A DNA stretch of 64,000 bases from an uncultured Gammaproteobacteria bacterium (GCA_964435035.1 CAYSXR010000001.1:144192-208191); one strand, 5' to 3'; shown: positions 55,254 through 55,366, counted from the first letter of the stretch. The notes: a model not told the origin generated them from the sequence alone. Program-made: numbers and translations.

Positions 55254-55366
55254 GTCATTCCGAGCGAGTGCACCCGAGCCGAGGAATCTTTCCTGTATAA
55301 GACCATGTAAGAAAGATTCCTCGACTCCCTCGGAGACTCGGTCGCTCGGAATGACTATCGTCACTT
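55254..55366. repeat. 113-bp palindromic element GTCATTCCGAGCGA...GAGGAATCTTTCCTGTAT | ...AAAGATTCCTCGACTC...GCTCGGAATGAC (copy 1 of 3), at the island/host junction
   Basis: Direct reading. The two arms are reverse complements over about 45 bp with a variable central part. Copies 2 and 3 are at 61106-61245 and 61583-61729. Confidence 0.6.

What the first reader, a model, noticed from the sequence alone, without database searches (positions are those of the whole stretch)
55254..55366. GTCATTCCGAGCGA...GCTCGGAATGAC palindromic element family: three copies, one at the island edge
Three 113-147-bp elements with about 45-bp inverted terminal arms and variable cores occur at 55254-55366, 61106-61245 and 61583-61729. 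Copy 1 sits exactly between the right end of the high-GC island (after its terminator) and the first host GT4 gene. Elements of this type could have provided the recombination site through which the island entered, or they are MITE-like insertions favouring intergenic hairpin-forming DNA.
Basis: seen in the sequence. Interest (0 to 1): 0.6.

Follow-up and report, generated by a model that had tools for sequence, protein, structure and literature searches.

The report
Hairpin repeats targeted by Ssn nuclease
The three palindromic elements are inverted pairs of a conserved DNA hairpin repeat that goes with a small single-strand-DNA-cutting nuclease (Ssn family, described in 2025) encoded right between two of them; the system is known, but this hairpin is a longer, interrupted variant that the published search pattern misses.

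Summary
There are three imperfect palindromes at 55254-55355, 61107-61244 and 61583-61719, made of six 40-48-nt arms that all start TGTCAT. The unit under selection is the single arm, not the long palindrome. Within each arm the basal stem ATyyC/GrrAT covaries (94 of 99 unique arms, four stem variants), whereas the two arms of a pair usually differ.

It is 47% identical to the Neisseria SsnA orthologue, which is itself flanked by canonical NTS repeats, and it keeps the catalytic Y, Y and E. So this is the Ssn nuclease / Ssn-related-motif (SRM) system of Chenal et al. 2025, related to the CGTC/TGTC-tagged REPs of Di Nocera 2013.

The arms share the defining HGTC tag, the A-T/T-A stem start and the C after the stem. 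They fail the published SRM search pattern (0 of 348 arms) because the stem is interrupted by tandem G·A pairs. This GA-type variant flanks 55 of 80 independently sampled relatives of the gene and occurs in at least a dozen phyla.

Three related Magasanikbacteria genomes lack all three copies. There a 23S_rRNA_IVP gene occupies the cassette's place. The island-entry idea is not supported.

The parts
55254..55355 (.). Copy 1: solo inverted pair (heterodimer) of two SRM-type arms with the tags pointing outward. The loop is about 16 nt. It is in reverse orientation relative to copies 2 and 3.
55254..55293 (+). Arm 1L (type A): TGTC tag, basal stem ATTCC/GGAAT, GA-GC-GA ... GA-GCC-GA interior, C after the stem.
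   Evidence: covariance model 47.9 bits
55310..55355 (-). Arm 1R (type B): the same frame with a longer nested interior, CC-GA-G-TCTC-C-GA-GG.
   Evidence: 45.7 bits
61107..61244 (.). Copy 2: inverted pair immediately upstream of the nuclease gene. The palindrome extends to 61100-61251. Its left edge coincides with the breakpoint against the relatives (61099/61100).
61107..61152 (+). Arm 2L: diverged B-like arm with basal stem ATCCC/GGGAT.
   Evidence: 43.6 bits
61205..61244 (-). Arm 2R (type A): 98% identical over 42 nt to arm 1L.
   Evidence: 48.6 bits, repeat I2
61288..61566 (+). ssn homologue: a 92-aa single-domain GIY-YIG nuclease, predicted to be a site-specific ssDNA endonuclease.
   Evidence: Pfam GIY-YIG 4e-14. 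47% identity to the N. gonorrhoeae SsnA orthologue: tblastn E 4e-18, BLASTP 7e-28. Y7, Y17 and E64 are conserved.
61583..61719 (.). Copy 3: inverted pair 16 nt downstream of the nuclease gene's stop codon.
61583..61628 (+). Arm 3L (type B).
   Evidence: 50.3 bits
61680..61719 (-). Arm 3R (type A variant): basal stem ATTTC/GAAAT, a compensated change.
   Evidence: 48.1 bits
61728..61739 (+). Possible degenerate fragment of an arm terminus (GCTCGGAATCAG). The evidence is weak.
   Evidence: read from the sequence; below the threshold of the covariance model
61746..61802 (+). 3' remnant (last 17 codons plus stop) of the 23S_rRNA_IVP gene that occupies this slot in the relatives. It marks the right side of the replacement.
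   Evidence: 13 of 17 residues identical to residues 106-122 of the L121 protein; alignment

Best explanation
The elements are inverted pairs of Ssn-related-motif (SRM) hairpins, which are REP-like repeats of the (C/T)GTC-tagged superfamily. The ORF at 61288-61566 between copies 2 and 3 is their cognate Ssn-family GIY-YIG nuclease.

Proposed mechanism:
- When the DNA is single-stranded (replication, repair, or incoming transforming DNA), each arm folds on its own. The fold has a 5-bp basal stem ATyyC/GrrAT, a tandem G·A/A·G step, one or two G-C pairs, often a second tandem G·A, and an apical mini-hairpin that is frequently C-GNA-G.
- The small monomeric nuclease binds this hairpin together with the C that follows it. 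It nicks the same strand a few nucleotides 5' of the TGTC tag.
- Because the arms are paired tag-outward, each strand of a dimer presents one target at its 5' end.

The arm-ssn-arm module behaves like a selfish or domesticated cassette. In this Magasanikbacteria lineage it replaced most of a 23S_rRNA_IVP gene. Copy 1 is a solo dimer. With copy 2 it brackets the GT4-Wzy-GT4-GHL15 surface-glycan cluster. By analogy with Neisseria, this would expose that region of incoming homologous ssDNA to cleavage.

Shown here: the repeat family, the arm-level covariation, the gene-repeat association, homology to SsnA with the catalytic residues kept, and the presence/absence polymorphism. Inferred from Chenal et al. 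2025: ssDNA-only binding and cleavage, the position of the cut, and any role in transformation.
For: (1) Repeat family and arm structure. The arm pattern left the yy and rr positions free, yet 94 of 99 unique arms are Watson-Crick matched. All four variants are common: TC/GA 27, CC/GG 29, TT/AA 32, CT/AG 6 (chi-square p = 7e-46). A further pair that no pattern constrained covaries as well: GC 59, CG 14, AU 9.

(2) Association with the gene.
- In element-anchored loci every GIY-YIG gene is flanked by arms (L010, L015, L044, L096, L103, L107).
- In 80 protein-anchored metagenome loci, 55 have a GA-type arm within 300 nt and 39 have one on both sides, against 0 in shuffles.
- The nearest arms mostly point toward the gene: 41 of 47 upstream and 37 of 49 downstream.

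(3) Homology.
- The window protein matches the single N. gonorrhoeae homologue at 47% identity (E 4e-18; 7e-28).
- That gene sits among canonical NTS repeats, CGTCATTCCCGCGCAGGCGGGAATCC.
- Residues equivalent to SsnA Y6, Y17 and E64 are invariant.

(4) The motif hallmarks reported in PMC11893778 as critical are present.
- The base before GTC is T, C or A in 473 of 479 arms.
- The stem starts A-T, T-A.
- A C follows the stem in at least 473 of 479 arms, although the pattern did not require it.

(5) Hints that the structure forms in DNA rather than RNA.
- C-GNA-G mini-hairpin motifs occur in 229 of 479 arm cores, against 54 in shuffled cores.
- No Rfam family matches.

(6) Presence/absence.
- Three syntenic relatives lack all the arms and carry an intact IVP gene where the cassette sits.
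- A 17-codon IVP remnant survives in the window.
Against: - No biochemistry exists for this protein or for this arm type.
- With nearest-neighbour DNA parameters the single arms are not predicted to be stable (z = 0 to +1.3). The full dimer strongly prefers the long cross-arm hairpin. The within-arm fold therefore rests on covariation and on analogy with NTS.
- The arms do not match the published degenerate SRM search sequence (0 of 348 arms, 0 in the window).
- Neisseria NTS repeats score only 12-14 bits with the arm model.
- Only six arms were found in about 74 kb of this genome, so this is not a high-copy family here as far as could be seen.
- The CDD cd10448 assignment could not be checked.
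- The mechanism by which the cassette or the solo dimers move is unknown. A GIY-YIG nuclease alone cannot carry out strand transfer.
Confidence: 0.85

Rival explanations
1. The primary function is at the RNA level. The long hairpin would act in transcripts as a terminator, an mRNA-stabilising REP-like element or a small RNA, and the nuclease gene would be incidental.
For: Each element folds as a very stable hairpin as RNA on either strand (z = -6.5 to -11.8). All copies lie just downstream of genes. Di Nocera 2013 (PMC3733652) argues that many tagged REPs are transcribed and act as RNA.
Against: - No Rfam family matches, even at permissive thresholds. Only chance miRNA-like hairpin hits appear.
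- Selection acts on the arm, not on the long hairpin. In 119 of 129 dimers the arms differ in length. The basal triplet is the same in both arms in only 54 of 129, no more often than for non-adjacent arms of one locus.
- Copy 1 follows an ordinary terminator, so it is not needed for termination, and no T-run follows the elements.
- SsnA does not bind RNA (PMC11893778).
- GNA triloops are characteristic of stable DNA mini-hairpins (my own knowledge, not tested here).
Confidence: 0.07
2. A classical MITE: a deletion derivative of a DDE-type insertion sequence, mobilised in trans through its terminal inverted repeats.
For: Inverted termini, a size of 100-140 bp, intergenic location, and presence/absence among relatives.
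Against: - There are no target-site duplications at any of the three copies.
- The termini are heterodimeric, and each is itself a covarying hairpin.
- Single arms and tandem arrays of arms exist (L113).
- The only gene systematically associated is a 92-aa GIY-YIG nuclease, not a transposase.
- The same 27-nt degenerate motif occurs across more than 12 phyla, which is unlike IS-specific inverted repeats.
Confidence: 0.04
3. An attachment or recombination site used for integration of the high-GC island.
For: Copy 1 lies at the right edge of the high-GC block.
Against: Relative L121 has the homologous high-GC block abutting the same GT4 gene without the element. There is no arm or half-site at the left border. 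No integrase was seen next to it. The other two copies are 6 kb away from the island.
Confidence: 0.02
4. A REP/REPIN family mobilised by a RAYT (HUH tyrosine transposase).
For: The overall logic is the same: tagged hairpins, inverted dimers, and a single nuclease gene flanked by repeats (PMC3733652, PMC3116915).
Against: The tag is TGTC, not GTAG. The flanked gene is GIY-YIG, not a Y1 HUH transposase. Di Nocera 2013 found no RAYT association for CGTC/TGTC-tagged REPs.
Confidence: 0.02

Closest known systems
Ssn nuclease family with its Ssn-related motifs (SRM/NTS). Chenal et al., Nat Commun 2025;16:2388 (PMC11893778).
   Same: - A single-domain GIY-YIG protein of about 92-94 aa, 47% identical to the Neisseria orthologue, with the catalytic Y, Y and E conserved.
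- The gene is flanked on both sides by oriented hairpin repeats.
- The repeats have an HGTC tag 5' of the stem, a stem that starts A-T/T-A, and a C right after the stem.
- Repeats also occur as solo copies near surface-structure genes.
   Different: - The hairpin is longer (about 23-60 nt against 28 nt).
- Its stem is interrupted: a 5-bp basal stem, then tandem G·A/A·G steps and a variable apical mini-hairpin.
- It fails the published search sequence HGTCWYN(0-2)YYVSBRHN(0-5)WNVSBRGN(0-2)RNCYNB (0 of 348 arms).
- The tail is CTT rather than CYRG.
- The host is a CPR bacterium. The paper's text does not mention Patescibacteria.
- Activity on this motif is untested.
CGTC/TGTC-tagged REP superfamily. 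Di Nocera, De Gregorio and Rocco, BMC Genomics 2013;14:522 (PMC3733652). It includes Neisseria dRS3 and Rickettsia RPE-4/6.
   Same: An unpaired C/TGTC tag, a stem that begins with A-T and T-A, a short unpaired tail, predominantly inverted dimers that are often heterodimers, an intergenic position downstream of genes, and occurrence in many phyla.
   Different: The described families have perfect 8-9-bp stems, 4-5-nt loops and a CCA tail. That paper found no dedicated enzyme. Here the stem is interrupted and the enzyme gene is adjacent.
REP/REPIN-RAYT systems (REPtrons).
   Same: The same architecture and logic: a tagged ssDNA hairpin, inverted doublets, and a nuclease gene embedded among its repeats.
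   Different: A different tag (GTAG) and an unrelated enzyme class (an HUH tyrosine transposase that forms covalent intermediates). GIY-YIG enzymes hydrolyse DNA and cannot rejoin it by themselves.

Membership tests
Ssn nuclease family (cd10448; PMC11893778) | Single-domain GIY-YIG protein of about 90-100 aa with no extra DNA-binding domain | tested here: met
   92 aa; Pfam GIY-YIG covers residues 4-76 and no other domain is found.
Ssn nuclease family (cd10448; PMC11893778) | Homology to Neisseria SsnA at the paper's criterion (tblastn E < 1e-10) | tested here: met
   tblastn E 4e-18 and 47% identity to the single N. gonorrhoeae homologue; BLASTP 7e-28. That gene was verified to lie among canonical NTS repeats. 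The N. meningitidis sequence itself was not available.
Ssn nuclease family (cd10448; PMC11893778) | Catalytic residues equivalent to SsnA Y6, Y17 and E64 | tested here: met
   Y7, Y17 and E64 align with them and are invariant among 32 relatives.
Ssn nuclease family (cd10448; PMC11893778) | Assignment to CDD cd10448 (GIY-YIG_unchar_3) / placement in the Ssn clade | not testable with these tools
   No CDD search is available. NCBIfam gave no hit. The nearest solved structures are UPF0213 proteins at E 2e-5.
Ssn nuclease family (cd10448; PMC11893778) | Gene flanked by its hairpin repeats on both sides | tested here: met
   Arms end 43 nt upstream and start 16 nt downstream of the ORF. The same holds in 39 of 80 relatives, against 0 in shuffles.
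Ssn nuclease family (cd10448; PMC11893778) | Binds and cuts only ssDNA, site-specifically, 5' of the motif | not testable with these tools
   Needs biochemistry.
SRM / NTS hairpin repeats (PMC11893778) | Oriented motif: HGTC tag immediately 5' of the palindrome | tested here: met
   All six arms have GTC (five TGTC, arm 1R AGTC, all within H). In the 479 unique arms the base before GTC is T 430, C 35, A 8, G 6. GTC itself was required by the search patterns.
SRM / NTS hairpin repeats (PMC11893778) | Cytosine immediately 3' of the palindrome (critical for binding) | tested here: met
   6 of 6 arms in the window and at least 473 of 479 unique arms, although the general pattern did not require it.
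SRM / NTS hairpin repeats (PMC11893778) | The repeat forms a hairpin on its own | tested here: inconclusive
   Strong covariation of the basal stem (94 of 99) and of one further pair. Thermodynamic prediction of the single arms is not better than for shuffles.
SRM / NTS hairpin repeats (PMC11893778) | Matches the published degenerate SRM search sequence | tested here: not met
   0 hits in the window and 0 of 348 arms. The same regular expression finds the canonical NTS and the repeats next to the Azospirillum, Sinorhizobium, Photobacterium and Neisseria homologues.
SRM / NTS hairpin repeats (PMC11893778) | Many copies per genome, enriched over shuffles | tested here: inconclusive
   Six arms in about 74 kb, all within 6.5 kb. 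The rest of the genome was not available. Other MAGs hold many copies.
CGTC-tagged REPs (PMC3733652) | C/TGTC tag, a stem starting A-T then T-A, and inverted dimers predominant | tested here: met
   Counts of adjacent arm pairs: 132 tag-outward inverted pairs, 47 tag-inward and 23 tandem.
CGTC-tagged REPs (PMC3733652) | Stem of 8-9 bp, loop of 4-5 nt, 3-nt tail fitting CCA | tested here: not met
   5-bp basal stem followed by G·A steps; interior of 4-50 nt; tail mostly CTT.
REP/REPIN-RAYT | GTAG tag and an adjacent HUH Y1 transposase (RAYT) | tested here: not met
   The tag is TGTC and the adjacent gene is GIY-YIG. The rest of the genome was not searched for RAYT genes.
MITE | Terminal inverted repeats plus target-site duplication | tested here: not met
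   The flanks of the three copies share no direct repeat.
Any Rfam RNA family | Covariance-model match at the gathering score | tested here: not met

The most novel reading that the evidence does not exclude
The GA-interrupted arm may be the cognate target of a distinct, very widespread clade of Ssn nucleases. It is found in CPR, Cyanobacteria, Bacteroidota, Chloroflexota, Omnitrophota, Desulfobacterota and others. Such enzymes would read a structurally different ssDNA hairpin (tandem sheared G·A steps plus a GNA mini-hairpin), giving a new specificity class that current SRM searches do not see. In addition, the arm-ssn-arm cassette may still be mobile in CPR genomes, inserting without target duplication by replacing resident DNA.
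Probability: 0.45. Interest if true: 0.55.

Novelty: new variant of a known kind. Interest (0 to 1): 0.4.

Why it matters
It explains an odd-looking palindrome family with a system characterised only in 2025, and places that system in a CPR (Magasanikbacteria) genome.

It also shows that the published SRM consensus covers only part of the family's targets. A GA-interrupted hairpin class flanks about two thirds of the sampled relatives of this gene. The same 27-nt degenerate frame recurs across at least a dozen phyla.

For those developing Ssn enzymes as ssDNA tools, this points to a ready-made set of enzyme/target pairs with a different recognition structure.

For genome biology, it gives a dated presence/absence case: the cassette replaced an IVP gene in one lineage. 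That bears on whether these modules are mobile or domesticated.

Tried and rejected
- Rfam at gathering and at permissive thresholds gave nothing but chance miRNA-like hairpin hits.
- A scan of viral contigs with the arm pattern gave 0 hits.
- Literature searches by raw sequence strings returned only chance matches such as TEM beta-lactamase primers. The search 'GIY-YIG palindromic repeat intergenic mobile' returned only mitochondrial intron papers. The decisive paper came from 'GIY-YIG' plus 'extragenic'.
- NCBIfam gave no family for the nuclease. No Ssn structure is in the PDB copy, only UPF0213 proteins and weak Slx1 hits. The paper's supplements are not held.
- An early idea was that the tandem G·A interior forms a k-turn-like RNA motif. 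It was dropped because the spacing does not fit, the loops look DNA-like, and Ssn does not bind RNA.
- I considered the GIY-YIG gene sitting as cargo inside one palindrome (a transposon/MITE pair). That layout is common in relatives, but in the window the gene lies between two complete dimers.
- No clean empty site was found for copy 1. The orthologous intergenic region in L121 has diverged too far to define exact junctions.
- A half-site at the left island border was searched for by mismatch search, by regular expression and by covariance model. None was found.

Full report
**1. The observation**

The 14-mer GTCATTCCGAGCGA occurs six times with at most 2 mismatches, as three inverted pairs, against 0.33 expected by chance. 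The palindromes span 55254-55355, 61107-61244 and 61583-61719. Arms are 40-48 nt and the cores vary.

Two arm types exist. Type A is GTCATTCCGAGCGA-GTGCACCCGAGC-CGAGGAATCTTTCC. Type B is GTCATTCCGAGCGA-CCGAGTCTTCGAGGGAGT-CGAGGAATCTTTCC. Copy 1 reads A...B'. Copies 2 and 3 read B...A', so copy 1 is inverted relative to the others. Arm 1L and arm 2R are 98% identical over 42 nt.

Each whole element folds as a long hairpin on either strand (z = -6.5 to -11.8). Rfam has no matching family at gathering or at permissive thresholds.

**2.

Copies 2 and 3 directly bracket a 92-aa ORF (61288-61566, + strand) that is a single GIY-YIG domain (Pfam E 4e-14). The genes between copy 1 and copy 2 are GT4, Wzy_C, GT4 and GHL15/FG-GAP. 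These domains are typical of surface-glycan synthesis (inference).

**3. The family elsewhere**

A scan of one genome per GTDB species used the degenerate arm pattern GTCATYYCGAGBGA-N(8-25)-GAGRRATCTTTCY.

The hosts are taxonomically very broad:
- Chloroflexota, Desulfobacterota, Alpha- and Gammaproteobacteria
- Omnitrophota, Ignavibacteria, Bdellovibrionota, Planctomycetota
- Acidobacteriota, Abditibacteriota, Bacteroidota/Rhodothermota
- a Bifidobacterium and a Lachnospiraceae MAG
- several CPR lineages: Magasanik-, Roizman-, Peri- and Saccharibacteria

Some MAGs carry many copies. A more general arm definition is GTCAT-xyz-GA...GA-z'y'x'-AT. It finds 354 arms in 894 kb of these loci, against 1 in shuffled sequence.

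**4. The conserved unit is the arm**

The scan pattern left the two Y and the two R positions free. Even so, 94 of 99 unique arms have perfectly complementary ATyyC / GrrAT. All four variants are common (27, 29, 32 and 6; chi-square p = 7e-46). One more pair, constrained by none of my patterns, covaries as well: GC 59, CG 14, AU 9, GU 3.

Between these pairs lie invariant GA/GA steps, read from the alignment. The arm therefore reads ATyyC-GA-N...N'-GA-GrrAT, often with a second GA/GA step and an apical C-GNA-G. That apical motif occurs in 229 of 479 arm cores, against 54 in shuffled cores.

The two arms of a dimer, by contrast, are usually different. In 119 of 129 dimers the arm lengths are unequal. 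The basal triplet is the same in both arms in only 54 of 129. That is no more than for non-adjacent arms of one locus (0.53). Single arms and a tandem array of arms (L113) also exist.

One caveat applies. Nearest-neighbour DNA parameters do not predict the single arms to be stable (z = 0 to +1.3). The arm fold rests on covariation.

**5. Association with the nuclease gene**

In the element-anchored loci, the GIY-YIG genes that are present all sit among arms (L010, L015, L044, L096, L103, L107).

An independent, protein-anchored sample gave the same answer. It comprised 80 metagenome loci encoding relatives with 51-64% identity. Of these, 55 have a GA-type arm within 300 nt and 39 have one on both sides, against 0 in shuffles. 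The nearest arms mostly point toward the gene with the tag distal: 41 of 47 upstream and 37 of 49 downstream. Median distances are 61 and 43 nt. The window shows the minority layout, in which the gene lies between two complete dimers.

**6. Identification**

Di Nocera et al. 2013 (PMC3733652) defined a superfamily of REPs tagged with CGTC or TGTC. Their stems start A-T, T-A. They occur mostly as inverted dimers that are often heterodimers. The authors state that the repeats 'apparently lack a dedicated transposase'.

Chenal et al. 2025 (PMC11893778) then made four points:
- The Neisseria member, NTS (CGTCATTCCCGCGMAVGCGGGAATCYRG), is bound only as ssDNA, not as dsDNA or RNA.
- The binding protein is the 94-aa GIY-YIG protein SsnA, which cuts a few nucleotides upstream.
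- The three bases before the stem matter for cleavage, and the C after the stem matters for binding.
- Genes of the family (cd10448) are typically flanked by such motifs (SRM), giving an NTS-ssnA-NTS layout.

The window protein matches the single N. gonorrhoeae homologue at 47% identity (tblastn E 4e-18; BLASTP 7e-28). I verified that this homologue lies among canonical NTS repeats. The residues corresponding to SsnA Y6, Y17 and E64 are Y7, Y17 and E64. They are invariant in 32 relatives.

The arms carry the HGTC tag (T 430, C 35, A 8, G 6). A C follows the stem in at least 473 of 479 arms, although no pattern required it. I therefore file the locus as an Ssn/SRM system.

**7. In what it differs**

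The published SRM search sequence finds none of my arms (0 of 348) and nothing in the window. It does find the canonical NTS. It also finds the repeats next to the Azospirillum, Sinorhizobium, Photobacterium and Neisseria homologues.

GA-type arms flank the Planktothrix (63% identity) and Spirosoma homologues instead. The minimal form is GTCATCCCGAGGAACGAGGGATC.

In the 80 protein-anchored loci the published pattern hits 4, against 2 in shuffles. Neisseria NTS repeats score only 12-14 bits with the covariance model of the GA-type arm, whereas the window's arms score 44-50 bits.

The window thus shows a distinct structural variant of the motif. The upper Watson-Crick pairs of the canonical stem are replaced by tandem G·A steps, and a variable apical mini-hairpin is added.

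**8. History at this locus**

The GHL15 protein has members more than 90% identical in Candidatus Magasanikbacteria MAGs. Three syntenic relatives (L121, L122, L123; about 88% nucleotide identity across the GT4-GHL15 cluster) contain no arms at all.

Between GHL15 and the 616-aa gene they carry an intact 122-aa 23S_rRNA_IVP gene. In the window that slot holds copy 2, ssn and copy 3. The left breakpoint is at 61099/61100, 7 nt before GTCAT. The last 17 codons of the IVP gene survive at 61746-61796, with 13 of 17 residues identical. No target-site duplication is present.

Copy 1 is also absent from the orthologous intergenic region of L121, although no clean empty site can be drawn.

L121 has a homologous high-GC block (GC 0.56-0.66) running up to the same GT4 gene without the element. 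No arm or half-site exists at the left island border. The island-entry idea is therefore not supported.

Two independent Logan assemblies break inside copies 2 and 3. No further arms occur in the 10 kb to the right of the window.

**9. Mechanism and confidence**

Shown here:
- a real repeat family
- arm-level covariation
- a strong gene-repeat association
- homology to SsnA with the catalytic residues kept
- a presence/absence polymorphism with gene replacement

Inferred from the 2025 paper:
- The arms fold when single-stranded.
- The nuclease binds the hairpin plus the 3' C and nicks 5' of the tag.
- The bracketing of the glycan cluster by copies 1 and 2 could modulate recombination with incoming ssDNA, as in Neisseria.

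How the cassette or the solo dimers move is unknown.

I put 0.85 on the Ssn/SRM identification. The novelty class is a new variant of a known kind. Interest is about 0.4.

Noticed in passing
window 7943-7984, 42071-42201, 51672-51713, 61794-61852: A second, AT-rich repeat family with roughly 7-nt periodicity, of the type TTCAAAACTTAAAACTCAAAA / AAGTTTTGAGTTTTAAGTTTTGA. One site is itself an inverted pair (44-nt arms, 82% complementary). One lies inside the high-GC block. One lies just upstream of the 616-aa gene, where the relatives have a similar TTTTG-rich stretch.
   Followed up: no
window 46415-46447, 49345-49377, 63778-63810: A repeated promoter-like 33-mer, ACTTGACAAAAAGGTATAAATATGCTATAGTAC (TTGACA ... 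TATAGT), occurs in three copies. Two of them lie at or inside the high-GC block (repeat D19).
   Followed up: no
window 38423-38644 (-), next to the tmRNA at 38774-39173 (-): A second small GIY-YIG ORF of 74 aa (Pfam E 1.5e-13). It is 39% identical to the Ssn homologue and 34% identical to Neisseria SsnA. No arms lie nearby, and by eye its sequence resembles the UPF0213 type more than Ssn.
   Followed up: partly
window 36480-36580 (-): tRNA-Asp(GTC) lies inside a perfect 21-bp inverted repeat. Twelve extra nucleotides on each side (GTAAAACAATAA / TTATTGTTTTAC) extend the acceptor stem, and no CCA is encoded. This may be a precursor-processing stem (repeat I25).
   Followed up: partly
window 46500-55200; L121 1-4250: The high-GC block (GC 0.5-0.65 against 0.40) encodes Dicty_CTDC / thrombospondin-type-3 repeat proteins, with long ORFs on both strands. 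A homologous high-GC block is present at the same place in a relative. It is therefore a lineage feature rather than a recent strain-specific island.
   Followed up: partly
L001 position 1 (window 61218); L204 position 1 (window 61594): Two independent Logan assemblies of the same organism end inside copy 2 and inside copy 3. The second begins right after the shared 11-nt start GTCATTCCGAG (window 61583-61593). The repeats evidently break short-read assembly graphs.
   Followed up: yes
L120 (Planktothrix agardhii plasmid p1, NZ_LR882964.1, 17347-20622): The closest named homologue of the nuclease (63% identity) is flanked by GA-type arms. It sits between an MmeI-type restriction-modification gene and DISARM drmA, that is, in a defence-island context.
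   Followed up: no
L113 19-265: A tandem, same-orientation array of single arms with a period of about 36-44 nt. It shows that the arm alone can be the repeated unit.
   Followed up: no
L205 (Azospirillum lipoferum plasmid AZO_p3): An Ssn homologue with canonical SRM dimers on both sides is inserted between sufB and sufC, inside a conserved operon.
   Followed up: no
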